Shown here: one piece after another, positions 6,161 to 33,542 of the stretch
Layout of the letters: each line of letters starts with the position of its first letter
Position numbering within the stretch: position 1 is the stretch's first letter
Origin: a virus
Taxonomy: Duplodnaviria > Heunggongvirae > Uroviricota > Caudoviricetes
Virus record (IMG/VR): IMGVR_UViG_2651869781_000011
DNA length: 34,848 bases
Direction: 5' to 3' (one strand)
Notes under the pieces: generated by a model
Told to the model about the DNA's origin: nothing
Seen by the model: only the letters and a program-made list of their open reading frames with translations
Databases searched by the model: none
Made by a program: the position numbers and the translations under genes

Positions 6161-6199
6161 TCTCCGGACGAAAAAAACCGCCGAAGCGGTTATGTTGAC

Positions 6200-6511: not shown

Positions 6512-6888
6512 TTAACCTCGCCGGCATCACTGATCAGTTCCAGAGACTGCCGAAGAAGCCGCGCATGCACCGGGCCATACACGGCAATCACCTGTTCACG
6601 ATCATCCTCTGAAAATACAGGTTGCAGTCCGGTATCACACAGAACATCAATGAACAGTTCAACATCTGCCTCCAGATTTCGGCGGGCGCGCTCCGCAACG
6701 GATAACGGTGTCTCATCATCTTTTGCTTTAACGATCTCCTGCCAGCGCAACCAGGCTTCTGCAGAAGGTTCCCGTAATACAACCGTTGCCCCTTCCCATT
6801 CAGGCACATCAACGGTTTTATGGCGAAACCCCGACATCGTTGCCAGTGCCAGATTACGGATATTTTTAGTCATCACATCTATCCTCAT
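6502..6888 (-). CDS. G: Tail assembly chaperone G
   Basis: 128 aa ending ...GEVKKK* on the slippery site; position between major tail gene and T. Confidence 0.85.
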   Translation of the reverse strand: MRIDVMTKNIRNLALATMSGFRHKTVDVPEWEGATVVLREPSAEAWLRWQEIVKAKDDETPLSVAERARRNLEADVELFIDVLCDTGLQPVFSEDDREQVIAVYGPVHARLLRQSLELISDAGEVKKK

Positions 6889-19573: not shown

Positions 19574-20629
19574 TTATGCTTTCCACTTCAGGACGCCCGA
19601 ATTTCTCGCGTGCATTAAAAAACGAATCAGCAACAACAACTGGCTACCGTGTTTGTCTTCAAAATCTTTTACTCCGGCGTGTAGTTCGTTATGGCATTTA
19701 CGACACAGCGGAATAACAAACAAATCATCAGCCTTTGTTCCCATTCCTCCCAGTCCATGACCAATGATGTGATGCGGATCATCTGCCTGATTACCGCACG
19801 TCATGCATTTCTGCGTTTTTACCCAGCGCGTGTATACAGGCATCTCTTCCCGTTGTGGTTTCTGGCGCTGGAGATACTGAGCCGGTGACTCCGGATCAAC
19901 GGCAATGCTGACCACCGTCTTTTCCTGTGGCGGGTTTTGCTGGTGGGCGTGAGGCAGCGGCGCAAGATTTTTTGTGCGCTGCTTCAGTATGCTGGTGGCG
20001 GTCTGCTCTCCCGGTACGATGTCGCTTTCGCGGTACACCGAGCGGATTTTTTCCGCACGCAATCCCAGAGAACGACGTAATACTGCCTCCGGCAATACGT
20101 CCGCTACCTGATTGCAGACCGCCCACCAGGATAATTCAGCCAGCGATAACTCCCGCTCCTGTGTACCGTTTATTGCGTGGCGGATGACGTCAATCATCCA
20201 GGATGTCAGGTTTTGTTGAGCAAGTTGCCCGAGTGATTCTGAAGTCTGGTCGCGTAACTGATTATCACAGTGCCAGCACAATACCATCGCGCCGGTACCG
20301 TAACGATGTATGACGGTTTCACTGTGGTGGTAGTCACCATGAGGCCACTGGCAGGATTTAACATGGCGTAACAGCCAGTCAGACAATGCGCCAGCGCCGC
20401 CAGCAGCACGAATCACCCGCTCATCGCTGAAAAATGGCAGTAATGATTTATCTTCCGCGAGCGGCTGGCGCACGGCAGGAACAGCTCCTGACGGCAGACC
20501 GCGCATGCTTTTCGGTTCCGGCTCCACCAGCACCCGGGGATTATGAAATGCCTGCATGGATTCACGGCCCGGCTTAAGGACCACCAGCCCGAGTTCCGGT
20601 ACCAGAACAGGTCGAAGTAATACCCGCAC
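19574..20629 (-). CDS. DUF968 / YdfU-like protein with C-terminal HNH-like Cys/His motif
   Basis: 351 aa, GTG start; C-terminus CMTCGNQADDPHHIIGHG...CRKCHNELH; same position as ydfU in Qin (recall). Confidence 0.55.
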   Translation of the reverse strand: MRVLLRPVLVPELGLVVLKPGRESMQAFHNPRVLVEPEPKSMRGLPSGAVPAVRQPLAEDKSLLPFFSDERVIRAAGGAGALSDWLLRHVKSCQWPHGDYHHSETVIHRYGTGAMVLCWHCDNQLRDQTSESLGQLAQQNLTSWMIDVIRHAINGTQERELSLAELSWWAVCNQVADVLPEAVLRRSLGLRAEKIRSVYRESDIVPGEQTATSILKQRTKNLAPLPHAHQQNPPQEKTVVSIAVDPESPAQYLQRQKPQREEMPVYTRWVKTQKCMTCGNQADDPHHIIGHGLGGMGTKADDLFVIPLCRKCHNELHAGVKDFEDKHGSQLLLLIRFLMHARNSGVLKWKA

Positions 20630-20630
20630 G

Positions 20631-20909
20631 TTACCTCCAGATACGCTGCTGGAATGTGCGGGACGGACGCGGTGGGCGTTCAGAGTAAGGCAGTCTGACT
20701 GAGATTATCCAGTGTCGGAAGTCGAAGCTGAGGTCTTTCTGAAACTCGTAACCACGTCTGCGGTAGTTCTGAATTAGCCACTCTGCCTGCTCTTCAGTAC
20801 ATGGATCATGCTGGAACCAGTCAGATTTGAATGCATGAGAACGCCGCCCGTGCCTGCTGGCAAAGACGGCTGAATTATCAGAATTGTGTTGTCTGGAATT
20901 TTGCGCCAT
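20631..20909 (-). CDS. Hypothetical protein (92 aa)
   Basis: Stop abuts the DUF968 start; no recognisable motifs. Confidence 0.4.
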   Translation of the reverse strand: MAQNSRQHNSDNSAVFASRHGRRSHAFKSDWFQHDPCTEEQAEWLIQNYRRRGYEFQKDLSFDFRHWIISVRLPYSERPPRPSRTFQQRIWR

Positions 20910-20975
20910 CGGCTTTCTCCGGTGGCACAGTGTTACTCAACAGGGGTTCAGCCCTACGCTGAATTGTAGATGAAT

Positions 20976-21233
20976 TCACTCATCTTCAAAAGCAGAAAAA
21001 CCAGCCTTAATCCCAGCTTCTTTCAGAGACGGCAACGATGTGACAAATTCATTTGCACGCAAAATAAAACCATCCGTCACAAGCCCATCCACCAAATGAA
21101 TTAACGCAGCTCCACTCTTCCTTTGTTGAGACTGTAAACATTTAATACGGCAGTGGCTGACAATAGCGCCATTCTCAACGCGCACAGTATAGAGGCCATC
21201 CTCACTAAAAATTTCACGTAATTCTTCGATTTT
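20976..21233 (-). CDS. Hypothetical protein (85 aa from ATG 21233)
   Basis: Track ORF 20976-21284; ATG with GGAAGGA SD at 21233; AT-rich; candidate TTGAAG-N18-TAGAAT promoter upstream. Confidence 0.4.
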   Translation of the reverse strand, partial: KIEELREIFSEDGLYTVRVENGAIVSHCRIKCLQSQQRKSGAALIHLVDGLVTDGFILRANEFVTSLPSLKEAGIKAGFSAFEDE

Positions 21234-21360
21234 CATCAACAGAATCCTTCCAGATAAATAGCACTCCCCCTGTTCGGGGTCCATCCCTCTTCTCCCTGCG
21301 CGCTACTTAAGTATTTTTGATTCTATTCTGGCACCGTCCAAAACTTCAAACACGTTGAAA

Positions 21361-21390
21361 ATAAAAACAAAAAACCCGCCGAAGCGGGTA
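21361..21390 (-). terminator. Intrinsic terminator after the HTH-peptidase gene
   Basis: CCCGC-cgaa-GCGGG stem followed on the minus strand by TTTTTTGTTTTTATTTT, 4 nt after the stop. Confidence 0.55.
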
Positions 21391-21393
21391 TAC

Positions 21394-22500
21394 TCAAACA
21401 ATCTGGAAAATATTTCTTGGATTTGTAATAGGTCTGTTGATGGAGAACAACTCACGAATTAAATCTTGGCTCAAGCCAGTTTTCATAAGAATTCTTAGCC
21501 AGGTTGCATCATCCAGCATTTCAATCGCCTCGGCCAGCATGCCGGGTTCTTCAGGGCGCAAAAGTTCATCACCAGGTTCAACTCTCGTATACCCTCTGGA
21601 ATTAAGATGCATATAGCCAGTTCTTGCCTGTTCCTGGGTCAATAAGCCTAATGCGCTGGCTCGATAAATACACATTTTAAGGCTGATTTTCCATCTAAGT
21701 TTAAATTCAACCAGAGCATTCCAGTCGAATTGCTTACCTCGTATTCGAGGAAATTCTTTAATGAAAGATAACCTGGGAACTAATAAGGCGCTCGAAAAGT
21801 GATCGGCTTGTGATTCCGTAAGTTTATCACCTGTCGTTATGCCCTCATGCATTACTAAATGCCCTAATTCATGACCTAAATCAGAGCGAAATCTACATAT
21901 GCTTTTTTTAACATTGTTCCTGATGATAACAGGCCTGTTATTGTGAACAGTAAAAGCATCAACACGATCATCGACTCCCGTAACATGCGCAACGATTACC
22001 CCTAAACTCTCCGCCAATTTAACCATTGATGATATAGGGCCAAGACCTAAATTCCAGGCACGGCGACAATCTTCTGCCACTCGCTCAATATCATTCGGAG
22101 TAAGTAATTCAGCCCCTGGGTGCTCCGGTATGTTAACGTCAGGAAATTCGATTTCACCTTCAACAGCAGAAATTATAATATTAAGAATCTCAGCCCTGGC
22201 CAATACACTATTAGTCAGCGTTTGAGTCCTGGACTTCTTACTCCGAAAATGGCAGACATCACTTTCCAGAGCGTATTTTCGTTCAGTAAAAAGAAAACTG
22301 GACTTAATCATAAGCGCTGAAGATATTAACTCAAGACATTGCTCCGATGGCCTGCACCCCTTCTCCAGTTTGCTAACGAATTGCTTTGTCTTGCCAATTT
22401 TTTCGGCTAACTCTTCACAAGAAAGCCCAACAGCCATTCTCGCTAGTTTGAGCTTATCACCCCGATACTCAGTGAAGTTATTCACCTGATGTTCCATCAC
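21394..22500 (-). CDS. XRE-family HTH fused to ImmA/IrrE-type zinc metallopeptidase (COG2856-like)
   Basis: 368 aa; N-terminal HTH (KLKLARMAVGLSCEELAEKIGKTKQFVSKLEKG); HEXXH motif HELGHLVMHE; AT-rich; start overlaps upstream gene by ~20 nt. Confidence 0.75.
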   Translation of the reverse strand: MMEHQVNNFTEYRGDKLKLARMAVGLSCEELAEKIGKTKQFVSKLEKGCRPSEQCLELISSALMIKSSFLFTERKYALESDVCHFRSKKSRTQTLTNSVLARAEILNIIISAVEGEIEFPDVNIPEHPGAELLTPNDIERVAEDCRRAWNLGLGPISSMVKLAESLGVIVAHVTGVDDRVDAFTVHNNRPVIIRNNVKKSICRFRSDLGHELGHLVMHEGITTGDKLTESQADHFSSALLVPRLSFIKEFPRIRGKQFDWNALVEFKLRWKISLKMCIYRASALGLLTQEQARTGYMHLNSRGYTRVEPGDELLRPEEPGMLAEAIEMLDDATWLRILMKTGLSQDLIRELFSINRPITNPRNIFQIV

Positions 22501-23128
22501 TGCTCACATCCAAATCTTTATCCTTCGTACGCCGACGAAGAGGCACCTTATTAATCTCCGCTTCGTCAGGGAGTGTGTTATAATCAAGAGGCATAAGCGG
22601 CATCGATGCTGTAGATTGATGAGAAACTATACTAATCTGAGCACCATAAGTATTAAATCCAACAAGAGCTACCTCCCAACGAGGCAGTGTGGACTCTAAT
22701 TCACCATCGCCCTCTTCGGATAAAAAAGGCTCAGCTATGACTCGCCATGTAATATCTTGCTCAGCCTCAACATCACCAAACAATGAGAGCTGCTCATACT
22801 CTACTTTATTTCGACGCAGACGATGTTTCTTTTTGGGGTTATTAATGCAATCTTTGGTAAATTGTAGCGGAACTTTATTTAAAGCAACTACATAGTCCAA
22901 CCCCTTGGAAATCATCTCAAGGCCAGGAATTGCATCTTCATTTTGAATAAGATGATTTCTGACCCAATCATAAGCCCTTACACCTTCAGACCAGTTGCTG
23001 TCTAATGCGTGCTTATGATAGTACAGCTGCTCAAGTACGTTAGCGATCTCCGCCAACAAGTGGCGAACATAGTTTTCAGCAAGATAAGGTTGAAATTCCC
23101 AACAAGGAGCTAACTGATTTTCATTCAT
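22478..23128 (-). CDS. Unknown protein (216 aa), first gene of the two-gene cassette
   Basis: ATG at 23128; acidic, probably disordered C-terminus; no motif I recognise; AT-rich. Confidence 0.6.
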   Translation of the reverse strand: MNENQLAPCWEFQPYLAENYVRHLLAEIANVLEQLYYHKHALDSNWSEGVRAYDWVRNHLIQNEDAIPGLEMISKGLDYVVALNKVPLQFTKDCINNPKKKHRLRRNKVEYEQLSLFGDVEAEQDITWRVIAEPFLSEEGDGELESTLPRWEVALVGFNTYGAQISIVSHQSTASMPLMPLDYNTLPDEAEINKVPLRRRTKDKDLDVSSDGTSGE

Positions 23129-23202
23129 TTCAAGTTTCGCTTTTTTTAGAATTCGTAAACCACATATTTTCGCATTTTTCTATTTTTGTCAACCAGACTA
23201 AT

Positions 23203-23225
23203 GCAAAAACCCGCCGAAGCGGGTT
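23203..23225 (-). terminator. Terminator hairpin downstream of hok
   Basis: CCCGC-cgaa-GCGGG stem followed on the minus strand by TTTTTGC. Confidence 0.5.
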
Positions 23226-23293
23226 AAGTGCGGGTGCGTTGAGGATGCCTGGCACATCAGAGGTGGCGGGAGATTACTCCCCCGCCGGGTCTC

Positions 23294-23449
23294 TTACTCC
23301 TCAGGTTCGTAAGCTGTGAAGACAGCGACCTCCGTCTGGCCGGTTCGGATTCGTACCTCGCAGAGGTCTTTCCTCGTTACCAGTGCCGTCACTATGACGG
23401 TTAAACAGATGACGATCAGGGCGATTAACATCGCCTTTTGCTGCTTCAT
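23294..23449 (-). CDS. hok: Hok/Gef-family type I toxin (HokD/RelF-like)
   Basis: 51 aa MKQQKAMLIALIVICLTVIVTALVTRKDLCEVRIRTGQTEVAVFTAYEPEE, checked codon by codon; below the 60-aa cutoff of the ORF track; AAGGAG SD. Confidence 0.85.
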   Translation of the reverse strand: MKQQKAMLIALIVICLTVIVTALVTRKDLCEVRIRTGQTEVAVFTAYEPEE

Positions 23450-23738
23450 AGCCTGCTTCTCCTTGACCTTTCGGTCCGTAAGAGGCTAATCTCTATGTGT
23501 CGCATAGATATGGCCTCAGATTAATGTTAAGCGTCTTGCAGGACGCGTAATGTTAACTGGGGCTTTTCTCTATCTGCCGTTGGTGTTCATGCCTGAGGCA
23601 GATAGCCTCAAGCACCCGCAGCAATTCTACTTAACTCTCCTTTTCCCGCAAATCGTTTTTATCCCCAGCGGCAAATCGAATACACCACCAGCGCCACCGC
23701 CATTGCAATTCCCATCGTTGCGAATGCTTCAGGCCAGG

Positions 23739-24404
23739 TCATTGACTCACCTCCAGCGGCGGTTCTGGTAGCGGCATCCAGTGAGTTACTTGCCCAAGGT
23801 CATTACCCGGACTAACTGCTATACCTCCGCGTCGGAACGTGTCTCCGATATAGCGTGCGGAATATATTAATGGCCCAGCCTCGCTGTCGATATTCACCGA
23901 AATAAGCACGTTCTGGCTCTTTTCAGGCATTCGCTCACTGCAGCTTATCCAACTATCCGGAGCTCCCGGAGAGTTGCCCGACAGCTCGTTCAACTTGTAA
24001 GTCTGGCTTACAGGCTCGTCACCATTAAGCATGGCGTTGCTCCGCTCTATACCATCCAGCGCGATTCGCAGTGCCTGAATTGTGGTAGTGCTATCGTTTG
24101 GGGCTATTCCATATCGCTCGAATACAGCGATATGACCGCGCATAATCTCAGGTGTAAGTTCTTTGTAAGCATAAGCAAGAGACGCTGATGCATTATCCGG
24201 CACAACCGACGCAGGCGCGGCAGCATAAACAGGAATAACGTCCGCTTGCTCTTTATTGCTTTCATCCGTTAAAGCCCAGAATAATTTCCCGGCTGGATGT
24301 TTGAAAATATAAGCAATTGGTTCTGCTTCCAGCGATGCCAGAGCAATTTTGAATAACTCACCCTCTACTCGTGCCCCCCCCTGAATTGGGGTGGCATTTC
24401 GCAA
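23739..24404 (-). CDS. Hypothetical phage protein; likely N-terminally split by a C8 homopolymer frameshift
   Basis: Track ORF starts at a TTG; an ATG at 24459 opens a 33-codon ORF that would fuse in frame if the 24374-24381 C-run were 7 rather than 8. Confidence 0.5.
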   Translation of the reverse strand: MRNATPIQGGARVEGELFKIALASLEAEPIAYIFKHPAGKLFWALTDESNKEQADVIPVYAAAPASVVPDNASASLAYAYKELTPEIMRGHIAVFERYGIAPNDSTTTIQALRIALDGIERSNAMLNGDEPVSQTYKLNELSGNSPGAPDSWISCSERMPEKSQNVLISVNIDSEAGPLIYSARYIGDTFRRGGIAVSPGNDLGQVTHWMPLPEPPLEVSQ

Positions 24405-24617
24405 TCGCTATTTTTAATTTAGCTTCTTCGATTAATTGCTCTTTTGTTAATTCAGTCATTTTTCATTACCGCCCTTTCGGGCGGCCTCCTGATGTTTTGA
24501 GGGGGCAGGAATCCCTCCTGTTAAGGATTAAATTTTATTTACAGTGCTGAGATTAATTATTCAGATTTGGATTATGTTTTCTCTTTCACTTCACGCAGTC
24601 CTGATTGTTAATTTGGC

Positions 24618-25034
24618 TCACAGTATCACCTCCTGCAAACTTCCCTTCCAGAAAGCCAGCACCCGTTGCATAGCTTCGCTCTGGCGGCACTCGCGACAAA
24701 TTATGTTCTGTCGTCTGTTGTAGCGACGTATTTCGCCATCTGGCAATGAATAAATCAGGTCAGGGTCGCTCTTCTTTTTCACTGCCGCTCTCGACATTTT
24801 TTTGCAGGCTTTTATCCAGTCCTTACGAGCCTGCTTCGAAGGAAATATTCCATGTCCTGAACCATATACTGCGCCACTAACTACCAGCTCTTTCGCCAGA
24901 ACTTCTATCAGGTGCCTCGTTGCTCCGGTTTCATCCTCCAGTTGCTTACGTGTTTTCCGCCCATCCCGCTGTACCAGCTCCACAATGCGCGCCTTCAGTT
25001 GCTTCCTGTATTCAGGTGTAAAAACGTTTCCCAT
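24618..25034 (-). CDS. Hypothetical phage protein (138 aa from ATG 25034)
   Basis: Track ORF 24618-25091; first ATG (MGNVFTPEYRKQ...) avoids overlap with the upstream gene; basic, Cys motif CRECRQ. Confidence 0.45.
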   Translation of the reverse strand: MGNVFTPEYRKQLKARIVELVQRDGRKTRKQLEDETGATRHLIEVLAKELVVSGAVYGSGHGIFPSKQARKDWIKACKKMSRAAVKKKSDPDLIYSLPDGEIRRYNRRQNIICRECRQSEAMQRVLAFWKGSLQEVIL

Positions 25035-25041
25035 AAACGCC

Positions 25042-25731
25042 TCACTTTTCCGATACAACGCGACTGGTGGAATCGACAATCTGTCGGACAATATCCCGGT
25101 GTTTATTCAGCTCCCGCAGTGCTGCGCAGACGCGCTCCCACTTCTGGACACGGTTTTTTGCCCGGCGCAGTTCGCGGTTTGCCAGATGCAGCGATGGTAA
25201 AGTCAGGTCATCGGCTCGCGTTTTGGTGAACGATGGCAACGACTGCACAATGTCCGCCACAGTTTCTGTTTTAATTTCTTCCTGTATTGCAGCTTTCGGC
25301 TCTGCTGGTAAATTATCGTCCGGCATGCAGTAACGAAATTTACCGTTCTGATTTACGCGAATCAGGCGACCTTTGCTGATTGCCTGAGCCAGCGTTGAAG
25401 CCACTTTGCGTGATGTGGTACCGAACAACGTAGCCAGTTCATCCGCCGTTTGTGGTCCGCGTTGTTCAATCGTCGCGGTTAAATCGCACTCTGAGATTTT
25501 CGCTACTGTTGCTGTGGTGGTTTCTTCCGGCAGTTCTGCCTGCGCTGGCTGTTCCTGCTGAACGTTGTTATCAGCCACACGCCAGGTGTACGCGCTTTTA
25601 TCAACAAAACCAGCATTTTTCAGTTCCCATAGTTCGTTAAGCACTTCTTCACGACTGATATCAAGTCGCGCCGCAAGTTCTATGGATGTGGCTTTTCCCA
25701 TTGCTTTCAGTGCGTCAAAAACAGTCTCCAT
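25042..25731 (-). CDS. Hypothetical protein with probable N-terminal winged-helix domain
   Basis: Track ORF 25042-25782; likely start [30 protein letters not shown]...; downstream of the DnaC-like gene. Confidence 0.45.
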
Positions 25732-25753
25732 TAAATTTTTCTCCCGGTAAAAA

Positions 25754-26500
25754 TCACTTCGTGATTCCTGGCTGGACGACATTCGGGCGCCAGCTTTCCC
25801 AGTTAAAATTCACCCAGCGTCCGCCGTTCATGGTCATGCGATCCATAATCCGCTCACCGAGCAATGTTTTCATGGCCTCATAGTTCAGGTTTGTCAGCAT
25901 TCCCACGCTACGCATCGACGCTGTCCGTCGATCAATAATCTGGTGCAGTACCACCTGCTCGTTTTTCGTCTCACGCTGAATGCCAATTTCATCAAGAACC
26001 AGCAGATCCACTTCGCACAGTTCCTGCAAAAATTTTTCGCCTGACTGCCCGTCGTCATAGCTGGCGTGCAGGGCACTCATAACATCAGCCACAGTAACCA
26101 CTATCACTGTCTGGCCGTCTTTCAGCAGGCGATTTCCGATAGCCGCCGCCAGATGGTTTTTCCCGGTACCAGGTTTTCCACTGAACGCGAAATTTGTACA
26201 CCCGGTCATCAGTTCATCGGCGATGGATTTTGCCTGGCTTAACGCGTATCGCTGACCGTCGTTCTGCACCTGGTAATTCGCAAACGAACATTTGCGGTGC
26301 AACGGCTGGATGCCTGAGCGATTCAGAATTTTTTCCACCCGCAACTGACGATTCAGGCGGTTGATCTCCTCGCTACGTTTCTGGCCTTCGGCAAGCTGCC
26401 ACTCGCGCCACTCCGCCACCGTTCTGTATGGAGCGGTTACATGTGGCGGGGTCAGTCTGCGGAGGCGTTCCAGAACACCACCTGTCGCAATATTTTTCAC
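25754..26500 (-). CDS. DnaC-like replicative helicase loader (IstB-like AAA+)
   Basis: 248 aa; Walker [14 protein letters not shown], Walker B LLVLDEIG; follows the O-like gene. Confidence 0.85.
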
Positions 26501-26506
26501 AGTTCG

Positions 26507-27472
26507 TTACCCCCTGAACCCCGGCGGAATTTCGGTGTCCGGTTCAGAAATGTGATTCACACAACGCTGTACAGGCGAACGCCCCAGACGGATAACCAGC
26601 TCATCCCATTTTTCGCGAAGCTTTGACGGGCTCATGACGTTTTTTACCCAGAATGGATCCCGCTGTACCCGACCAAACATTTCGCAAATTTGCCTGTGAG
26701 TTCTGCCATCCAGCATCCGCATTGTGCGCACGTCATTGGCCCACACGGTCCAGTTTGGTTCTTTCGGTCGCATGATCTCGCCATCATCGCTGGCAGCCTG
26801 CTCGTAAAGACTCACGATTCGTCCCCAGATCCACTGCGCACAAGCTAAATCTTCCTGGCTACCCCACTGGCGTTTTTTCGCACTGAACACAACCGCGTCA
26901 GGGTGTCGGGTTAAAAAATCCTGTTCAGCCGTCTGCATGTCCGGTTGCGAAGCTTCCGGACGAGAAGTGTTTTTATTCTCTGTAGTAATCTCTGTTGTAT
27001 TCTCTGTAAGATCATCGGGCCATTTTGACCCGATGACATTGGGTCGTTTTGAACCAATGGAGCGTGCCATTTTGACCTCTTCCATCGTGTCATTTTGACC
27101 TGATGGAGCGGCGCATTTTGACCTGATGGATTCGCTCACTTTGCCACCATCTAAAAGCTCACTCTCGTAATTAATCGTGTAAAAATTAGTCATGTCACGC
27201 TTTGATTTGTTGAGCTTTTCGCAACGCAAAAGCCCCAGCGTTTTCAGACTTGCAAATGCGCGTTTTAACGTTGACTCTGACCAGAACGGGAACTGTTCCA
27301 GCCATTGTTCTGTTGTGTTATAAATCCAGCGAACCCCGTTACATTCCATGCCGGAATTAGTATCTCTCAACCAGTAATGCAGCTGCTGCAGTACAATGGC
27401 TTCATTCAGGCCAATTTTCATCGCCAGCTGCGTGTTAATAACCAGTGGGCGTTCAGCAAAAAGAAGACTCAT
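26507..27472 (-). CDS. Replication initiator (lambda O-like), ori iterons inside the gene
   Basis: Track ORF to 27526 begins at TTG; ATGs at 27514 and 27472; N-terminal DNA-binding-like region, acidic repeat linker, C-terminal domain; contains the iteron array. Confidence 0.75.
   Translation of the reverse strand: MSLLFAERPLVINTQLAMKIGLNEAIVLQQLHYWLRDTNSGMECNGVRWIYNTTEQWLEQFPFWSESTLKRAFASLKTLGLLRCEKLNKSKRDMTNFYTINYESELLDGGKVSESIRSKCAAPSGQNDTMEEVKMARSIGSKRPNVIGSKWPDDLTENTTEITTENKNTSRPEASQPDMQTAEQDFLTRHPDAVVFSAKKRQWGSQEDLACAQWIWGRIVSLYEQAASDDGEIMRPKEPNWTVWANDVRTMRMLDGRTHRQICEMFGRVQRDPFWVKNVMSPSKLREKWDELVIRLGRSPVQRCVNHISEPDTEIPPGFRG
27021..27147. repeat. Origin iterons: CATTTTGACC-type repeats at ~23-bp spacing
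   Basis: Four exact CATTTTGACC copies (27021, 27068, 27091, 27114) plus two degenerate ones; three 12-bp TCTCTGT-containing repeats just upstream (26974-27009); AT-richer stretch follows. Confidence 0.7.
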
Positions 27473-27974
27473 AATTCCATCCGGCTTTTTGTTGATATTG
27501 CTGACGATACGCATGCTTGAAAGCAATAGCTTTTTCTATAAGCTCGTCAGTCTCACGCTCCACAACAGCGGGATCTGCCAAAAGCAGACCGGACTCCACC
27601 ACATCGCCATATTCTTTGTTTAACCCGGCGATCATGTACGTAATGCTTTTTCCGTCAGTAATTTCACAATACAACCTGAAATCGCTGATCCGGATAGCCT
27701 CCATAATTGCCGGAATCAGCGCCGTGAATTTTTCCCGCTTATCCCTGGTGTCGATAGCTTTCCAGCGTTCGAATATCTTCACCCGGTTAACGCCCAACGC
27801 CCGTTGATCAACCTCGCCATCATTAAACGTGACGCGTTGAACATCGATGTTCGGGCGTTCTTTCAGAGCCCAGAATGCTTCCGTGATTAATATCGTCGCC
27901 TGCTCCTGTGTCATTCCTGGTCGGCATACCCAGGCATCCAGAGCCTCACAAACCTGTTCAGGGGTGATTTTCAT
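27453..27974 (-). CDS. Hypothetical protein at the cII position (possibly YdaT-like)
   Basis: 173 aa between the Cro-like gene and the O-like gene; family assignment uncertain. Confidence 0.35.
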   Translation of the reverse strand: MKITPEQVCEALDAWVCRPGMTQEQATILITEAFWALKERPNIDVQRVTFNDGEVDQRALGVNRVKIFERWKAIDTRDKREKFTALIPAIMEAIRISDFRLYCEITDGKSITYMIAGLNKEYGDVVESGLLLADPAVVERETDELIEKAIAFKHAYRQQYQQKAGWNYESSFC

Positions 27975-28185
27975 TGTTCAACCGCCCCGCCCGCTTTGCC
28001 TTACGATATTCGTCATAAACTTTGGGGTCGTACTGAAGTTCCCCGCCGGATGCCTCTTGCAGGCGCATCGCGCGACCTTCAGGAACCAGTTCCCCCCATT
28101 GAGAAACAGCAGATGGATCAACACCAGCAGCTTTCGCTACTTTGGCTTTCGTCCCATAAAAATTAATTACGTCTGATTTAAACAT
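27958..28185 (-). CDS. dicC: Cro-like regulator (DicC/YdaS family)
   Basis: 75 aa from ATG 28185 with GGAGGGG SD; divergent from the repressor gene; HTH-like N-terminus. Confidence 0.7.
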   Translation of the reverse strand: MFKSDVINFYGTKAKVAKAAGVDPSAVSQWGELVPEGRAMRLQEASGGELQYDPKVYDEYRKAKRAGRLNNENHP

Positions 28186-28262
28186 CACCCCTCCAAAGTT
28201 GAGTTTTCTCAATAGTAATCACTCAAGGAATCTCAAGTCAAGGGTTATTAAGATATCTAAAT
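28186..28262. promoter_or_regulatory. Divergent promoter/operator region between dicC-like and dicA-like genes
   Basis: TTGAGTTTTCTCA at 28199-28211, CTCAAG direct repeats at 28222-28237; candidate minus-strand promoter TTGACT-N18-TACTAT; no SD before the dicA ATG. Confidence 0.5.
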
Positions 28263-28670
28263 ATGAACGAGAAAACTTTAGGTCAACGAATTAGAGAAAG
28301 ACGCAAACAGGTTGGTTTAAGTCAAAACGATTTAAGCAAAGCCGCTGGCGTATCTGGCTCATCAATTTCACTATGGGAAAGCGACCATACAGCCCCGCGC
28401 GGGCAAAATTTGCATCGCCTGGCTGAGGTATTGCAATGTTCACCAACTTGGATACTGTTTGGTGACGAGGATAAAACACCAGATCCACCAGTTGCACTCA
28501 ACAGCGCCTTAGACTTATCGGAAGATGAGTTGGAGATGTTGCGATTGTATCGCGCACTTCCAAAATCAGAGCAGCAAGCACAAATCAGCGAACTCCGTGC
28601 CCGCGTTGAGAATTTTAATCGCCTATTCACCGAGCTACTAGAAGCTCGCAAACGTAACAAACATCAGTAA
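28263..28670 (+). CDS. dicA: XRE-family repressor (DicA-like, CI analogue)
   Basis: 135 aa; HTH LSQNDLSKAAGVSGSSISLWE; ...VLQCSPTWILFGDEDK... matches DicA as recalled. Confidence 0.8.
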   Translation: MNEKTLGQRIRERRKQVGLSQNDLSKAAGVSGSSISLWESDHTAPRGQNLHRLAEVLQCSPTWILFGDEDKTPDPPVALNSALDLSEDELEMLRLYRALPKSEQQAQISELRARVENFNRLFTELLEARKRNKHQ

Positions 28671-28731
28671 CCCCCTTCACAAATTTTAAAGCCTTACATT
28701 TCAATGTATTGGCTTTATTTTGCATTAATTA

Positions 28732-28783
28732 TTGAGTTTTCTCATTAAAAACACTTGACCAATATTCATGAGAAAACTAAATT
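28732..28783 (+). promoter_or_regulatory. Candidate repressor-controlled promoter for the ydfA-dicF-dicB operon
   Basis: TTGACC-N17-TAAATT (28755-28783) flanked by TTGAGTTTTCTCA (28732-28744, identical to the 28199 site) and an inverted near-copy at 28769-28780. Confidence 0.45.
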
Positions 28784-28860
28784 ACCACCCATCAAGACAC
28801 CGCACGGTGTTCTCAGCAAACAGTTCCGCTACCCCGGCGTTAAGGGGAAATGAGGTCAAC

Positions 28861-29016
28861 ATGGATACTATCGATCTTGGCAACAACGAATCTCTGGTGT
28901 ACGGCGTGTTTCCCAACCAGGACGGCACATTCACCGCGATGACGTATACCAAAAGAAAAACGTTTAAAACCGAAAATGGTGCCCGTCGCTGGCTGGAAAG
29001 AAACTCAGGTGAGTGA
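28861..29016 (+). CDS. ydfA: YdfA-like small protein (51 aa)
   Basis: ATG 28861 with GAGG SD; same size and position as Qin ydfA (recall). Confidence 0.55.
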   Translation: MDTIDLGNNESLVYGVFPNQDGTFTAMTYTKRKTFKTENGARRWLERNSGE

Positions 29017-29017
29017 T

Positions 29018-29146
29018 ATGGATTTCGACACAATCATGGAAAAGGCTTACGAAGAATACTTCGAAGGCCTTGCCGAAGGCGAAGAAGCTCTCAGCTTCAG
29101 TGAGTTTAAACAGGCGCTTTCCAGCTCGGCAAAATCTAACGGCTGA
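29018..29146 (+). CDS. ydfB: YdfB-like small acidic protein (42 aa)
   Basis: MDFDTIMEKAYEEYFEGLAEGEEALSFSEFKQALSSSAKSNG; starts 1 nt after the previous stop; below the ORF-track cutoff. Confidence 0.5.
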   Translation: MDFDTIMEKAYEEYFEGLAEGEEALSFSEFKQALSSSAKSNG

Positions 29147-29175
29147 TAAGCGAAGCAGCACCGCGAGGAATCAGT

Positions 29176-29394
29176 ATGCAGAAACGAGAACCCGTCATCA
29201 TCGCGCCAGACTATACCGATGATGAACTTTATGAGTGGATGCACCAGAAAATTAATGCAGCGCAGGATCTGAAATGGGCCAATGAAGCCAGGGCTAAGCA
29301 GGCTGAAAATCTGTCCGCTCTGGAGCAGGATATCACCAATCTGGAAAAAGCAGCGGCATTAAGCATTGCCAGAATGATTACATACCCGCGTTAA
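29176..29394 (+). CDS. ydfC: YdfC-like protein (72 aa)
   Basis: 72 aa; same size and position as Qin ydfC (recall). Confidence 0.5.
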   Translation: MQKREPVIIAPDYTDDELYEWMHQKINAAQDLKWANEARAKQAENLSALEQDITNLEKAAALSIARMITYPR

Positions 29395-29416
29395 TAGCTA
29401 ACCAACGAGGCTAATA

Positions 29417-29824
29417 ATGGAATTTAAAGATTTACCAAAAGAAATCCAGACAATTGCTGCAACGACTCTCGGTGATAGTCTGGTGAAAATTGACCCGGCA
29501 TACACCAAAAAAGAAACCATCGATAATATGGTTCGTAATGTGCGCAATGCTTTTTCTGGGCTATATGGTTCTGATAATCAAAAGCAGGAAAGCGATGTTA
29601 ATAAACGGGTAATTTCTGTTTGCGTGAATGGCCATGTTCTTTCATCAATCAAAACAGAAACGGCGACAGTCTTCGATTGCCTTTGCATTGTACAGAGCCT
29701 TGTTGATGCCCTGTTTCGTTCAGTGAATTTAGAAAATGATGCAAATCTGCGAGGGCGCACAATAGCACATCCATATGCACATACTTTAGGCTCTGTGGAT
29801 ATCAAAGATCCCACAAATCTTTAA
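29417..29824 (+). CDS. Hypothetical protein (135 aa), AT-rich
   Basis: ATG 29417 with GAGG SD at 6-nt spacing; no recognisable motif. Confidence 0.5.
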   Translation: MEFKDLPKEIQTIAATTLGDSLVKIDPAYTKKETIDNMVRNVRNAFSGLYGSDNQKQESDVNKRVISVCVNGHVLSSIKTETATVFDCLCIVQSLVDALFRSVNLENDANLRGRTIAHPYAHTLGSVDIKDPTNL

Positions 29825-30035
29825 TGAAATAGTTAACGCGAATTGTACTTGCTCTTTCAGTTGCTTTCAGAATACGCGTTGAAACTGCTGGCGGTAATTT
29901 GGTATTCCATTTATTAAAATCATGCCCGGGAAAGTACTCTTCGAAAATACTTTTAACTGCAGACTCGCCTATTGAAATGCTGCTTACCATGCGATTTTGA
30001 TAAAGGCATTTAGCAATAAGAGTTGATTTTAACAT
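29802..30035 (-). CDS. Hypothetical protein (77 aa), convergent with the 135-aa ORF
   Basis: ATG 30035 with strong AGGAGG SD; 3' end overlaps the 135-aa ORF by 23 bp; AT-rich. Confidence 0.5.
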   Translation of the reverse strand: MLKSTLIAKCLYQNRMVSSISIGESAVKSIFEEYFPGHDFNKWNTKLPPAVSTRILKATERASTIRVNYFIKDLWDL

Positions 30036-30368
30036 TCACCCTCCTGAGGGTTGGTAATTAAGGAGTTCTCCACGGGTGAAATGGAGTGCGTGCGCCGGAC
30101 ACGGGTGAACATCCGGCACTGACAGTTTACTGAAAGGATATTTCTCTGAAAAGTCAGAGCATAACGCGAAAGCGCACGGCGAGGTTGCTGGTTCATAGAT
30201 AGCCTGTCGTTAAATTTTCGTCGACCGTGCGCTTCCGGTTGTGGCACTCCGCGAAATGGCGCGGCGGTAAGTATGGCGGGGTTATTCCTTCCCCCGTTGA
30301 GGACACCGGGTTGTCAGGTTGACCATACGCTTAAGTGACAACCCCGCTGCAACGCCCTCTGTTATCAA

Positions 30369-30425
30369 TTTTCTGTGACGTTTGGCGGCATCTGTTTGCC
30401 CATGAACTGATGTCCGCCCTTTTTA
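30369..30425 (+). ncRNA. dicF: DicF-like small RNA with intrinsic terminator
   Basis: TTTTCTGTGACGTTTGGCGG...CCGCCCTTTTT resembles Qin DicF as recalled; GGCGGCATC/GATGTCCGCC stem then T5; immediately upstream of dicB. Confidence 0.65.
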
Positions 30426-30593
30426 AAGTGAATTTTGTGATGCGGTGAATGCGGCTAAGCGCACGCGGAACAGTTAAAGCTAAAAACAGTGTTATGGGTG
30501 GATTCTCTGTATCCGGCGTTAATTGTTAACTGGTTAACGTCACCTGGAGGCACCAGGCACCGCATCACAAAACTCATTGTTGAGGACGCGATA

Positions 30594-30782
30594 ATGAAAA
30601 CGTTATTACCAAACGTTAATACGTCTGAAGGTTGTTTTGAAATTGGTGTCACTATCAGCAATCAGATATTTACTGAAGATGCCATTAATAAAAGAAAACA
30701 CGAACAGGAACTGCTAAATAAAATATGCATTGTTTCGATGCTGGCCCGTTTACGTCTGATGCAAACAGGATGCAGGCAATGA
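30594..30782 (+). CDS. dicB: Cell division inhibitor DicB
   Basis: 62 aa MKTLLPNVNTSEGCFEIGVTISN...ICIVSMLARLRLMQTGCRQ; GAGGA SD; matches DicB as recalled. Confidence 0.85.
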   Translation: MKTLLPNVNTSEGCFEIGVTISNQIFTEDAINKRKHEQELLNKICIVSMLARLRLMQTGCRQ

Positions 30783-30969
30783 ATACGGCATTTGTACTCG
30801 TTCTGACTGTTTTTTTGTTTCTGGTGAACCGATTGATCTTGTTATTGACATACATGACTCAATGGAAGAATGCATGACTGCCGCGGCAGAGCAAAAAATT
30901 CCCGGGAACTGTTATCCTGTCGACAAAATTATTCGCATGAACAATAACGAAATCCCGGCAGGCCTTTAA
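30779..30969 (+). pseudogene. ydfD: ydfD-like gene interrupted by a frameshift at a T7 tract
   Basis: ATG overlaps the dicB stop; frame stops after 32 codons; one extra T in the 30810-30816 run would give a continuous 63-codon ORF. Confidence 0.5.
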
Positions 30970-31061
30970 AACAGCCCCATAATAAATATCCGGTTTTATT
31001 TTTATATGTCAGCAATGGCAGGGATTTGTCCACCCTTAAATCTGTAATGAGGTAAAACAAA

Positions 31062-33542
31062 ATGAGTAAAGTCTTTATTTGCGCCGCCATTCCGGACGAA
31101 CAGGCAACAGCAGAAGGCGCCAAACCTGTGGCCACTGCCATTGAAGCAGGCGACGAACGCCGGGCAAGAGCCAAATTTAGCTGGTTATTTCTGGAACAAT
31201 ACCCGGAAGCTCAGGACTGTGCTTATAAATTTCTTGTCTGCGAGGATAAACCCGGCATGGCCCGCCCTGCTCTCGATTCCTGGGATTCCGAATATATGCA
31301 GGAAAACCGCTGGAATGAGGAGTCGGCTTCCTTTGTTCCGGTCGACCCTGAACCGGACGCAGAAATTGTTAACTTTAATCAGTTATCTGACGACAAGCGG
31401 GCTGCTGTCCTTGTCAGGTTCGGTACACATGAAAACATCACCGTGGATATGGTCATCAATGCAAGCGGGCTTCTCGGCGATGACGAGATGACGACTTTTG
31501 ATGGACACCTCGCTGAAGCAATTATCCGGACCAGAGAAATTAACGCCATGTATCCAGAGCGTCAGATTGAGTACATCAACGATGCCAGACGTGATTTAAA
31601 ACCAACAGCCAAATGGCCCGACGTTCAGGCGTATTTTCTCGAACGTAAAAAACGCATGGAAAAGGAGCGCAAAGAAGGTGGCGCATATAATTCCGTCGTC
31701 GATCTTGCCCGCGCCAGAGTCAACCGGCAAGGCACTGAAAACTCTGCAGGAAAAACTGACTCCGTAACTGCTGTCATTCGTCGCGAATACAGGCAGACAT
31801 GGAAAACACTGGATGAAGAACTGGCCTACGCTTTCTGGCCTGGTGATATTGATGCCGGAAACATTGACGGCAGCATCCATCGCTGGGCAAAAAATGAAGT
31901 TATCGACAAAGATCGCGAAGACTGGAAGCGTATTTCCGCATCAATGCGCAAACAACCTGATGCCGTTCGCTACGACCGTCAGACTATTTTTGGCCTTGTC
32001 CGTGAGCGTCCGATCGACATTCACAAAGATCCCGTGGCGCTGAACAAATACATCACTGAATACCTGGCGACAAAGGGCGTGTTTGAGGATGAAGAAACAG
32101 ACCAGAGCACTGCTGATATTCTCCAGCCGTCAGCAGCACAAACTGATGCAGTGGAAACTGAAGTATCTGATACCCAAAAAAATGAAAGCGCGCTGGAAAC
32201 TGAACCATCTGTAGAGCGTGAGGGGCCGTTCTACTTCCTCTTCACCGATAAGGATGGCGAAAAATATGGTCGTGCAAACAAACTTTCTGGTCTGAATAAG
32301 GCGCTGGCTGCCGGGGCTACTGAAATCACGAAAGAAGAATATTTTGCCCGTAAAAACGGCACGTACTCAGGTTCACAACAAAATACTGGTGCATCTGACA
32401 CGACCGCACAACCAGAGCCGGTAAAAGTTACCGCTGACGAAGTAAACAAAATTATGCAGGCAGCCAATATCAGCCAGCCTGACGCCGATAAGTTGCTTGC
32501 TGCCTCTCGCGGAGAATTTGTTGCAGGGATTAGCGACCCGAATGATCCGAAATGGGTGAAGGGGATTGAAACCCGCGATTCTGTAAACCAGAACCAGCAA
32601 GAATCGGAACAGAACGACCAGAAAGCGGAACAAAACAGCCAAAATGCGTTACAAAACGAGCCAGAAACGAAACAACCTGAGGCAGTAGCGCAACAGGAAC
32701 CGGAAAAAGTCTGCACCGCCTGCGGTCAGAGCGGTGGCGGCAACTGCCCTGATTGTGGCGCGGTGATGGGCGACGCAACATACCAGGAAACATTCGATGA
32801 AGAGAATCAGGTTGAAGTTCAGGAAAATGATCCGGAGGAAATGGAAGGCGCTGAACATCCACACAAGGAGAATGCTGGCAGCGCTCAGGACCACGCCAGC
32901 GATAATGAAACTGGTGAGACGGCAGATCCCTTAATTGTGGTGAACGGTCATCACGTTATCACATCCACCAGCAGAGTGTGGTACCACCTGATGATCGACC
33001 TTGAAACAATGGGAACCAACACCAATGCGCCCATCGTGGTTATTGGTGCGGTTTTCTTCGACCCACAAACAGGGGAAATCGGGCCAGTATTTTATATCGT
33101 TATCAGTCTGACTGACGCAATGAATACAGGGGCTGCTCCTGACGGTGGAACCATCAAATGGTGGCTGAAGCAGTCCAGTGAAGCCAGAGCTGCCATTTTA
33201 ACAGACCAGGTAAAACTGAAGGATGCCCTTTCGCGGTTTCGGGAGTTCATCAACGAATACTCAGATGAAAAATTCGTTCAGGTATGGGGTAATGGTGCAA
33301 CTTTCGATAACGCAATTTTGCGCACCTCATACGAACGTCTGGACATCCCCTGCCCGTGGCGCTACCACAACGATCGCGATGTACGCACAATCGTTGAGCT
33401 GGGAAAAACAATCGACTTTGATGCTAGAACCGTTATTCCATTCGAAGGCGTTCGCCACAATGCACTGGATGACGCCCGTCACCAGGCAAAATACGTTTCA
33501 GCAATCTGGCAAAAACTGATCCCGAATCCGGTTGATTTTTAA
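31062..33542 (+). CDS. RecE-like large protein with C-terminal DEDDh 3'-5' exonuclease domain
   Basis: 826 aa; GAGG SD; C-terminal motifs MIDLETMG, WGNGATFDNAIL, HNALDDARH; central ...KLLAASRGEFVAGISDPNDPKWVKG... recalls RecE; Cys cluster CTACGQSGGGNCPDCG. Confidence 0.8.
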   Translation: MSKVFICAAIPDEQATAEGAKPVATAIEAGDERRARAKFSWLFLEQYPEAQDCAYKFLVCEDKPGMARPALDSWDSEYMQENRWNEESASFVPVDPEPDAEIVNFNQLSDDKRAAVLVRFGTHENITVDMVINASGLLGDDEMTTFDGHLAEAIIRTREINAMYPERQIEYINDARRDLKPTAKWPDVQAYFLERKKRMEKERKEGGAYNSVVDLARARVNRQGTENSAGKTDSVTAVIRREYRQTWKTLDEELAYAFWPGDIDAGNIDGSIHRWAKNEVIDKDREDWKRISASMRKQPDAVRYDRQTIFGLVRERPIDIHKDPVALNKYITEYLATKGVFEDEETDQSTADILQPSAAQTDAVETEVSDTQKNESALETEPSVEREGPFYFLFTDKDGEKYGRANKLSGLNKALAAGATEITKEEYFARKNGTYSGSQQNTGASDTTAQPEPVKVTADEVNKIMQAANISQPDADKLLAASRGEFVAGISDPNDPKWVKGIETRDSVNQNQQESEQNDQKAEQNSQNALQNEPETKQPEAVAQQEPEKVCTACGQSGGGNCPDCGAVMGDATYQETFDEENQVEVQENDPEEMEGAEHPHKENAGSAQDHASDNETGETADPLIVVNGHHVITSTSRVWYHLMIDLETMGTNTNAPIVVIGAVFFDPQTGEIGPVFYIVISLTDAMNTGAAPDGGTIKWWLKQSSEARAAILTDQVKLKDALSRFREFINEYSDEKFVQVWGNGATFDNAILRTSYERLDIPCPWRYHNDRDVRTIVELGKTIDFDARTVIPFEGVRHNALDDARHQAKYVSAIWQKLIPNPVDF

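What the first reader, a model, noticed from the sequence alone, without database searches (positions are those of the whole stretch)
24360..24462. C8 homopolymer splits a phage ORF from its probable true start
The 221-aa minus-strand ORF has no ATG start in its own frame (track start is a TTG). An ATG at 24459 opens a frame reading MTELTKEQLIEEAKLKIAIAKCHPNSGG, which joins the long ORF exactly if the run at 24374-24381 had 7 C rather than 8. This is a possible slipped-strand on/off switch or a homopolymer error.
Basis: seen in the sequence. Interest (0 to 1): 0.45.

Follow-up and report, generated by a model that had tools for sequence, protein, structure and literature searches.

The report
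Slippery G-run frameshifts a prophage gene
A run of eight G:C pairs has gained one extra base and cut a prophage accessory gene of unknown function off from its real start codon; the same run is found as 6, 7, 8 or 9 bases in otherwise identical Escherichia prophages, so it is a genuine, recurrent slippage hot spot rather than a one-off sequencing error, but nothing shows it is a purpose-built switch.

Summary
On the minus strand, G8 (24381-24374) separates a 33-codon ORF opened by the ATG at 24459 from the 221-codon DUF551 ORF (23739-24404). Deleting one G gives a 239-aa protein identical to a database protein (P0121/WP_059271481.1). Relatives annotated from the same ATG confirm it as the true start.

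The tract is young. Most relatives carry GGGATGG, GGGTTGG or GGGGTGG, always 7 nt. One sublineage, E. albertii and some E. coli, changed that codon to GGG and made G7. Public assemblies of that sublineage hold G6, G7, G8 and G9. Carriers of different lengths can have identical flanks: 0 mismatches in 5.9 kb for G6 versus G7, and 0 in 3.9 kb for G7 versus G8.

G8 occurs in at least three datasets besides the probable source, one of them on a diverged haplotype. The tract is the window's only indel against near-identical prophages. A private sequencing error is therefore unlikely.

Best reading: a heritable +1 slippage frameshift allele, probably null or weakly expressed, at an accidental hot spot in a dispensable prophage gene. 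A selected on/off switch is not excluded and not supported. The alternative-frame start codons predate the tract. Interest is low to moderate.

The parts
24374..24381 (-). Homopolymer: G8 on the coding strand (C8 on +). This is the slippage site and carries one base more than the in-frame G7 allele.
   Evidence: Relatives have G7 (in frame), G6, G9, or interrupted 7-nt versions.
24457..24459 (-). Authentic ATG start codon of the DUF551-family gene.
   Evidence: RefSeq CDSs of relatives start at the homologous ATG: L001 3102, L003 1601, L004 1575. The restored product equals P0121.
24358..24459 (-). Truncated 33-codon reading frame left by the frameshift. The first 28 residues are the true N-terminus, followed by GTSRG and a stop.
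   Evidence: No gene with this product is on record.
23739..24404 (-). 221-codon remainder of the gene in the +1 frame. It is callable only from a TTG with no evident Shine-Dalgarno sequence.
   Evidence: The product is deposited as WP_241955521.1 / P0122.
23739..24459 (-). The whole disrupted gene. It is a lambdoid-prophage accessory gene with a variable N-terminal helical hairpin, a conserved central region and a C-terminal DUF551 domain.
23757..23954 (-). DUF551 (PF04448) domain.
   Evidence: E = 5e-21, 75.7 bits against a cut-off of 22; residues 151-216 of the 221-aa ORF.
24395..24397 (-). ATG in the third frame (AAATGCC). Annotators use it as the start in G6 and G9 alleles (MPPQFRG...). 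It leads nowhere in this G8 allele.
   Evidence: It is present in all alleles, including those without the tract.
24373..24395 (-). Quasi-palindrome GCCACCCC-AATTCA-GGGGGGGGC that contains the tract. It is a perfect 8-bp inverted repeat in the GGGGTGG allele.
24468..24486 (-). G+C-rich hairpin (GCCGCCC-GAAA-GGGCGGU) just upstream of the start codon, in the intergenic region after the DUF977 gene.
   Evidence: It is conserved in relatives.

Best explanation
The window carries a real, heritable +1G frameshift allele of a lambdoid-prophage accessory gene. The intact form is 239 aa, with an N-terminal helical hairpin, a conserved core and a DUF551 domain. Its biochemical function is unknown.

Shown: In one sublineage of Escherichia prophages, codon 28 changed by point substitution through the allelic series ATG, GTG, GGG (Met, Val, Gly). 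This fused flanking G's into an uninterrupted G7. The run has since changed length repeatedly, and G6, G7, G8 and G9 alleles all exist.

Inferred: The length changes arise by slipped-strand mispairing during replication.

Inferred: In this G8 allele, ribosomes starting at the true ATG (24459) terminate after 33 codons. The remaining 211 codons can be reached only from a TTG without a ribosome-binding site, or by rare +1 slippage on the G run. The gene is therefore effectively off or strongly reduced.

Inferred: The tract behaves as an accidental mutational hot spot in a gene the lysogen can do without. It is not an evolved switch.
For: - **Frame and start.** Deleting one G gives exactly P0121. 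H1, which matches the 861-nt query at 99.9% and is 99.6-99.8% identical over about 12.6 kb, has G7 and an intact annotated 239-aa CDS. More distant relatives are annotated from the same ATG.
- **Origin of the tract.** In an unbiased IMG/VR pattern scan of 34 loci, 22 were GGGATGG, 3 GGGTTGG, 6 GGGGTGG, 2 G7 and 1 G6. All interrupted versions were 7 nt long. All listed matches among the 267 complete E. coli genomes with the module span 150 nt for the 151-nt query.
- **Real and heritable.** The exact 221-aa product, which only G8 can encode, is on 6 contigs. These include GCA_001265575.1 (100% identical over 6.6 kb, probably the window's source), GCA_027564875.1 (2 mismatches in 6.6 kb), SRR22016571, and SRR12769693 (7 mismatches in 1.75 kb, a different haplotype). 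G8 was verified in the DNA of all four.
- **Recurrent.** Products of G7 (P0121 and P0124, 42 index blocks each), G6 (P0135, 61 blocks, plus P0002, P0136, P0137 and P0129) and G9 (P0141) are all deposited and verified in DNA. Carriers of different lengths have identical flanks. G6 versus G7 shows 0 mismatches in 5900 nt. G7 versus G8 shows 0 in 3896. G7 versus G9 shows 0 in 3553. The haplotype table points to at least four independent length changes.
- **No general homopolymer noise.** The tract is the only indel against L015 across 12.2 kb, apart from a 72-bp block. It is also the only indel in 7.3 kb against H1. About 18 other runs of 6 nt or more lie in that stretch.
- **Mutational expectation.** Indel rates in E. 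coli rise exponentially with run length, and 7-8-bp G.C runs are recognised hot spots (PMC8510543).
Against: - No reads were inspected. A systematic platform error at this run cannot be formally excluded, and the single G9 record could be one.
- About half of the tract-bearing database entries are out of frame with the true ATG (G6 roughly equals G7 in abundance). All keep a downstream ORF identical to the in-frame protein. That would also fit a reversible switch held by selection, or a functional truncated product from the alternative ATG.
- Index 'blocks' are not independent lineages.
- Whether any of the identical-flank pairs are the same strain sequenced twice is unknown.
- Expression of the G8 allele was not measured.
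Confidence: 0.72

Rival explanations
1. Selected phase variation (a contingency locus). The G run is kept because reversible 6/7/8/9 switching turns the DUF551 gene on and off, or between long and N-terminally truncated forms, and this benefits the prophage or lysogen.
For: Tract length is polymorphic on identical haplotypes. Out-of-frame alleles are common and carry no secondary damage. All three frames have a potential start upstream of the run: ATG 24459, ATG 24397 and TTG 24404. This recalls the multi-start phase-variable genes of Haemophilus, which I cite from my own knowledge.
Against: The tract is missing from most relatives and was created by a point change in one codon. The alternative-frame ATG and TTG are ordinary by-products of the Lys-Cys and Ala-Ile-Ala codons and exist in all alleles without the tract, so they are not adaptations to it. 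The run is 6-9 nt in mismatch-repair-proficient Escherichia, shorter than classical contingency tracts. A C8/G8 is not over-represented relative to shuffles. The alternative starts have no visible ribosome-binding site. No phenotype is known for DUF551 proteins beyond correlative notes (PMC10834534, PMC4776307).
Confidence: 0.12
2. Sequencing or assembly error. The true sequence is G7, and the extra base is a homopolymer miscall in this assembly.
For: Eight-base homopolymers are the classic error site of flow-based and nanopore chemistries. The tract is the only difference from several G7 relatives. No read data are available here.
Against: The same G8 appears in at least three further datasets, two of which differ from the window at other positions. 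About 18 other runs of 6 nt or more in the 12 kb shared with L015 agree perfectly. G6 alleles are present in finished E. albertii chromosomes and in dozens of assemblies.
Confidence: 0.1
3. Programmed recoding. The G8 arrangement is decoded into the full-length protein by +1 ribosomal slippage of tRNA-Gly on GGG GGG G, or by RNA-polymerase slippage on the run.
For: A +1 shift of the tRNA on the second GGG re-pairs perfectly and would give exactly the G7 protein (...SGGARVEG...), as the sequence shows. A hairpin can form across the run.
Against: The out-of-frame arrangement is not conserved, and relatives are in frame. There is no stop or rare-codon pause signal at the shift site. Documented slippage by E. 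coli RNA polymerase concerns A/T runs of about 7 or more (PMC6260861; PMC1088944). At most this would give trace read-through.
Confidence: 0.04
4. Two genuine genes: a 33-aa peptide and a separate 221-aa DUF551 protein started at TTG, as deposited in RefSeq (WP_241955521.1).
For: Automatic annotation calls the 221-aa product as intact.
Against: The first 10 residues of that product (MRNATPIQGG) are out-of-frame translation of the conserved N-terminal module. No relative has this arrangement except other G8 alleles. There is no ribosome-binding site before the TTG. The 33-aa ORF is on record nowhere.
Confidence: 0.02

Closest known systems
Homopolymeric-tract 'microevolution' and phase variation as surveyed in Bordetella pertussis (Gogol et al. 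2007, PMC1891110)
   Same: An intragenic G/C run differs by single bases among very closely related strains and shifts the reading frame.
   Different: In Bordetella the tracts were longer than chance expectation, and some varied within single cultures. Here the run is not longer than chance allows, within-culture variation is untested, and the host has intact mismatch repair as far as is known.
Poly-G contingency loci of Campylobacter, Neisseria and Haemophilus, including multi-start genes such as lic1A (my own knowledge)
   Same: A poly-G run lies near the 5' end of an ORF. Start codons are available in more than one frame. On, off and altered products depend on run length.
   Different: Those tracts are usually 8-13 nt or longer, or are tetranucleotide repeats. 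They are conserved as tracts across strains and switch at 1e-2 to 1e-4 per generation. This tract is 6-9 nt and was born recently from an interrupted sequence. Its alternative starts predate it.
Indel hot spots at 7-8-bp G.C runs in E. coli mutation-accumulation data (PMC8510543)
   Same: Same organism group, same run length and base composition, same plus-or-minus 1 changes.
   Different: Those data come from mismatch-repair-defective laboratory lines. Here the events are seen as natural polymorphism in prophages.
DUF551 proteins of lambdoid and cryptic prophages: YfdS of CPS-53 and Ea22 variant V2 of Stx phages (PMC4776307, PMC10834534)
   Same: A C-terminal DUF551 domain, a mosaic N-terminal region, and a location among early or accessory prophage genes.
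   Different: None of those is reported to carry a variable homopolymer. Function is equally unknown.

Membership tests
DUF551 (PF04448) domain proteins | Match to the Pfam model above the gathering score | tested here: met
   75.7 bits against a cut-off of 22, E = 5e-21, profile positions 1-67 of 68.
Frameshifted allele (pseudogene) of an intact gene | Intact, collinear orthologues exist, and a single indel accounts for the disruption | tested here: met
   Removing one base gives a protein identical to P0121.
Simple-sequence contingency (phase-variable) locus | Repeat tract inside the ORF whose length sets the reading frame | tested here: met
Simple-sequence contingency (phase-variable) locus | Tract length polymorphic among closely related strains | tested here: met
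   G6, G7, G8 and G9 occur on identical or near-identical flanks.
Simple-sequence contingency (phase-variable) locus | Tract maintained as a tract across relatives, or longer than chance expectation | tested here: not met
   Most relatives have interrupted 7-nt versions. A C8/G8 occurs in 44 of 100 shuffles.
Simple-sequence contingency (phase-variable) locus | High-frequency, reversible switching within a clonal population | not testable with these tools
   This needs read-level or single-colony data.
Programmed frameshift or transcriptional-slippage gene | The out-of-frame arrangement is conserved among homologues | tested here: not met
   Homologues are in frame.
Programmed frameshift or transcriptional-slippage gene | A recognised slippery motif with a stimulatory element | tested here: inconclusive
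   The G run permits perfect +1 re-pairing, and a local hairpin is predicted. No known stimulator such as a stop codon or a correctly spaced Shine-Dalgarno sequence was identified.

The most novel reading that the evidence does not exclude
The G run is a bona fide phase-variation switch in an Escherichia (mainly E. albertii) lambdoid prophage. It toggles a DUF551 accessory protein between full-length (G7), N-terminally truncated (G6/G9 from the alternative ATG) and off (G8) states. This would be a rare example of simple-sequence contingency behaviour in a mismatch-repair-proficient enterobacterium, and carried by a phage.
Probability: 0.12. Interest if true: 0.5.

Novelty: new member of a known kind. 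Interest (0 to 1): 0.25.

Why it matters
- **Annotation.** The G8, G6 and G9 alleles are deposited as 'intact' DUF551 proteins with spurious N-termini: 221 aa from TTG, then 218 and 219 aa starting MPPQFRG. These should be read as frameshift variants of one 239-aa gene that starts at the ATG.
- **Biology.** This is a clean natural example of a single codon substitution creating a homopolymer that then becomes an indel hot spot. Length changes outpace any substitution in about 6 kb of flank.
- **If switching proved fast or selected.** It would be an unusual phage-borne contingency locus in Escherichia and would give a handle on the unknown function of DUF551 proteins.
- **Otherwise.** It is ordinary prophage gene decay.

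Tried and rejected
- **Species-representative genomes.** A pattern scan for the module and tract found 0 hits.
- **Metagenome contigs.** A scan for the uninterrupted tract found 0 hits, so there is no environmental sampling of tract lengths.
- **The 33-aa ORF as a called gene.** It is not on record.
- **P0139 look-up.** This was a possible further tract allele, but it is not on record.
- **Neighbour-joining tree of flanks.** Mosaicism and short contigs distorted it. I replaced it with a haplotype table and closest-pair comparison.
- **Solved-structure search.** Nothing significant was found.
- **AlphaFold2 model.** It was too poor (mean pLDDT 48.8) for a fold search. Only the N-terminal helical hairpin was moderately confident.
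- **PHROGs.** Only families of unknown function matched.
- **Tandem-repeat search at the 72-bp indel.** None was found. It is a deletion between short direct repeats.
- **Promoter and terminator scan.** It gave nothing above shuffle expectation.
- **Downstream 27-aa ORF.** I rejected the idea that it is a remnant of the gene that follows DUF551 in other prophages. There is no similarity.

Full report
**1. The observation**

The window's minus strand reads ...AAATGCCACCCCAATTCA-GGGGGGGG-CACGAGTAGAGGGTGA.... The run is G8, at 24381-24374, which is C8 on the plus strand.
- An ATG at 24459 opens a 33-codon frame, MTELTKEQLIEEAKLKIAIAKCHPNSGGGTSRG, that stops at 24360-24358.
- The long ORF 23739-24404 (221 aa) is in the +1 frame and has only a TTG start. 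It carries a C-terminal DUF551 domain.
- Deleting one base of the run gives a 720-nt ORF whose 239-aa product is identical to a database protein, P0121.
- The run is the only G/C homopolymer longer than 6 in the window. A C8/G8 somewhere in 35 kb is still not unusual, since 44 of 100 shuffles contain one.

**2. The true start**
- The closest complete-genome relative is E. coli PS1Thumoskin9 (H1). It matches the 861-nt query at 99.9%. It is 99.8% identical over window 23034-32633 and 99.6% over 19882-22892.
- H1 has G7 and an annotated intact 239-aa 'DUF551 domain-containing protein', WP_059271481.1, starting at the homologous ATG.
- Three more distant prophage contexts (L002-L004) share the N-terminal module. 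The two with a called CDS there are annotated from the same ATG.
- The module is present in 267 of 5426 complete E. coli genomes. All listed matches span 150 nt for the 151-nt query, so all have the 7-nt version.
- In a 41-sequence family alignment nearly all members carry an N-terminal extension of about 30-60 residues ahead of the conserved core that starts at 'IALASLEAEP'.

Neither is met.

**3. Origin of the tract**

An unbiased pattern scan of IMG/VR returned 34 loci.

| Sequence at the tract position | Loci | Encoded residues |
|---|---|---|
| GGGATGG | 22 | Ser-Gly-Met-Ala |
| GGGTTGG | 3 | |
| GGGGTGG | 6 | Gly-Val |
| GGGGGGG (G7) | 2 | Gly-Gly |
| GGGGGG (G6) | 1 | out of frame |

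All interrupted versions are exactly 7 nt. The homopolymer was therefore created in one sublineage by point substitution in codon 28, through the allelic series ATG, GTG, GGG.

In the GTG allele, GCCACCCC-AATTCA-GGGGTGGC is a perfect 8-bp inverted repeat. The ATG-to-GTG step could therefore be a quasi-palindrome-templated change. That is inference only.

**4. Real allele or error**
- The exact 221-aa TTG product can be encoded only by G8. It is on 6 contigs.
- I verified G8 in the DNA of four of them:
  - GCA_001265575.1, 100% identical over 6.6 kb at matching coordinates, is probably the window's source.
  - GCA_027564875.1 has 2 mismatches in 6.6 kb.
  - SRR22016571 is identical over 1.3 kb.
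  - SRR12769693 has 7 mismatches in 1.75 kb, so it is another haplotype.
- Against L015 (12.2 kb, 7 substitutions) the tract is the only indel apart from a 72-bp block.
- Against H1 the tract is the only indel in window 23034-30373.
- About 18 other runs of 6 nt or more in the stretch shared with L015 agree.

A private homopolymer miscall is therefore unlikely. No reads could be examined.

**5. The tract varies repeatedly**

The protein clusters around the gene contain products of every tract length. They come mostly from Escherichia albertii, with some from E. coli.

| Tract | Product | Database entries |
|---|---|---|
| G7 | 239 aa | P0121 and P0124, 42 index blocks each |
| G6 | 218 aa, 'MPPQFRGARVEG...' from an ATG in the third frame (window 24397-24395) | P0135, 61 blocks including finished chromosomes; also P0002, P0136, P0137, P0129 |
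| G8 | 221 aa from TTG | P0122 |
| G9 | 219 aa, 'MPPQFRGGARVEG...' | P0141, one contig |

All lengths were verified in the DNA. Removing two bases from the window reproduces P0135 exactly.

Carriers of different lengths can have identical flanks.

| Pair | Tract lengths | Mismatches in flanks |
|---|---|---|
| L015 vs L044 | G7 vs G6 | 0 in 5900 nt |
| L015 vs L041 | G7 vs G8 | 0 in 3896 nt |
| L059 vs L066 | G7 vs G9 | 0 in 3553 nt |

- The haplotype table shows G7 with G8 on one haplotype, G7 with G6 on a second and G7 with G9 on a third. G8 also appears on a fourth, diverged haplotype, and G6 on several more.
- That means at least four independent length changes among sequences that differ by less than 1%.
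- The tract therefore mutates at least as fast as all the roughly 6000 flanking sites together.
- This is what is expected of a 7-8-bp G.C run in E. coli, where indel rates rise exponentially with run length and such runs are known hot spots (PMC8510543).

**6. How it most likely works**
- *Shown:* the frame relationships, the origin of the tract, its polymorphism and its heritability.
- *Inferred:* in the G8 state, ribosomes that start at ATG 24459 stop after 33 codons.
- The body of the gene has no canonical in-frame start after the tract until well inside the ORF.
- The TTG at 24404 has no Shine-Dalgarno-like sequence ahead of it.
- The allele is therefore probably null or very weakly expressed.
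- A +1 slip of tRNA-Gly on the second GGG would re-pair perfectly and recreate the G7 protein. This could give trace read-through but is untested.
- The N-terminal 44 residues are modelled, with moderate confidence only, as a helical hairpin with the tract codons at the turn. The G6/G9 'products' would lack the first helix.

**7. Switch or accident**

*For a switch.* Out-of-frame alleles are about as common as in-frame ones. They carry no secondary lesions, and all three frames have a start codon upstream of the run.

*Against a switch.*
- The tract is absent from most relatives and is only one substitution away from an interrupted sequence.
- The alternative ATG and TTG exist in all alleles without the tract, so they are by-products of the coding sequence.
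- The run is short for a mismatch-repair-proficient host and not over-represented.
- The abundance order (G6 about equal to G7, both far above G8, G8 above G9) fits neutral, length-dependent slippage. This is inference.

I put a selected switch at about 0.12, sequencing error at about 0.10, programmed recoding at about 0.04, and two genuine genes at about 0.02.

**8. Comparison with known systems**
- The protein is a member of the DUF551 family (criterion met). This is a portable domain of unknown function also found in YfdS of prophage CPS-53 and in an Ea22 variant of Stx phages (PMC4776307, PMC10834534).
- PHROGs, PDB sequence search and the AF2 model add no function.
- Mechanistically the locus works like homopolymeric-tract variation as described for Bordetella (PMC1891110), and like the poly-G contingency genes of Campylobacter, Neisseria and Haemophilus.
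- It fails one defining feature of a contingency locus, namely a tract maintained across relatives or longer than chance. The key feature, the switching rate, could not be tested.
- It fails the conservation criterion for programmed frameshifting.
- Documented transcriptional slippage by E. coli RNA polymerase concerns A/T runs (PMC6260861).

**9. Verdict**

This is a correctly spotted, real frameshift at a young homopolymer in a prophage accessory gene. The novelty is modest: a new, well-documented example of a known kind.

The practical consequence is annotational. RefSeq and GenBank list G6, G8 and G9 alleles as intact proteins with spurious N-termini.

Interest is 0.25. It would rise to about 0.5 if fast, reversible switching were demonstrated.

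Noticed in passing
window 24373-24395 (- strand): GCCACCCC-AATTCA-GGGG(T/G)GGC. In the GGGGTGG allele this is a perfect 8-bp inverted repeat around a 6-nt loop. The commoner GGGATGG allele has one mismatch. The ATG-to-GTG change that preceded the homopolymer may have been templated by the quasi-palindrome.
   Followed up: partly
window ~25288-25304 (DUF1627 gene, 25042-25782, - strand); L015 6929-6985: A 72-bp in-frame indel (24 codons) is bounded by GCCG(A/G)AAGCTGCA direct repeats. The window and H1 have the short form (229-aa gene call). L015, L044 and many E. albertii loci have the long form (253 aa). It looks like a deletion between short direct repeats, not a tandem repeat.
   Followed up: partly
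window 23659-23742 (- strand): A 27-codon hydrophobic ORF (MTWPEAFATMGIAMAVALVVYSICRWG) has an ATG that overlaps the DUF551 stop codon (ATGA). This suggests translational coupling, so the frameshift upstream could be polar on it. It is not annotated in the RefSeq relative and is unrelated to the gene that follows DUF551 in other prophages.
   Followed up: partly
RefSeq/GenBank proteins WP_241955521.1 (221 aa), P0135/P0002 group (218 aa), P0141/WP_080846972.1 (219 aa): Frameshift alleles of one gene are deposited as intact DUF551 proteins. Their N-termini (MRNATPIQGG..., MPPQFRG...) are out-of-frame translations of the conserved N-terminal module.
   Followed up: yes
E. albertii CP099877.1: L064 (2.97 Mb) and L068 (1.97 Mb): One finished chromosome carries two related prophages with this gene. 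One has G6 and the other the interrupted GGGGTGG allele. This gives scope for gene conversion between copies.
   Followed up: no
L047, L049, L052, L053, L071 (about 270 nt downstream of the DUF551 stop): An IS element (rve-family transposase, 348 aa) is inserted between the DUF551 gene and the hok toxin gene in several E. albertii prophages. It is absent from the window.
   Followed up: no
window 23294-23449 (- strand), 21394-23128 (- strand): A HokD-type type I toxin gene is followed by a 216-aa ORF of unknown function (phrog_5786). That ORF overlaps a 368-aa HTH plus M78-peptidase (ImmA/IrrE-like) regulator. In H1 the 216-aa ORF is reduced to a 101-aa remnant.
   Followed up: partly
L005 (NZ_CP180607.1) 5004-7588 and 33203-33393: The G7 reference prophage itself has an annotated frameshifted portal gene and a frameshifted DUF1482 gene. 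That record is therefore not free of frameshifts, real or technical, elsewhere.
   Followed up: no
window 24468-24486 (- strand): A conserved G+C-rich hairpin (GCCGCCC-GAAA-GGGCGGU) lies 9 nt upstream of the true ATG and has no T-run. It may be an mRNA 5' structure or processing or attenuation element between the DUF977 and DUF551 genes.
   Followed up: no
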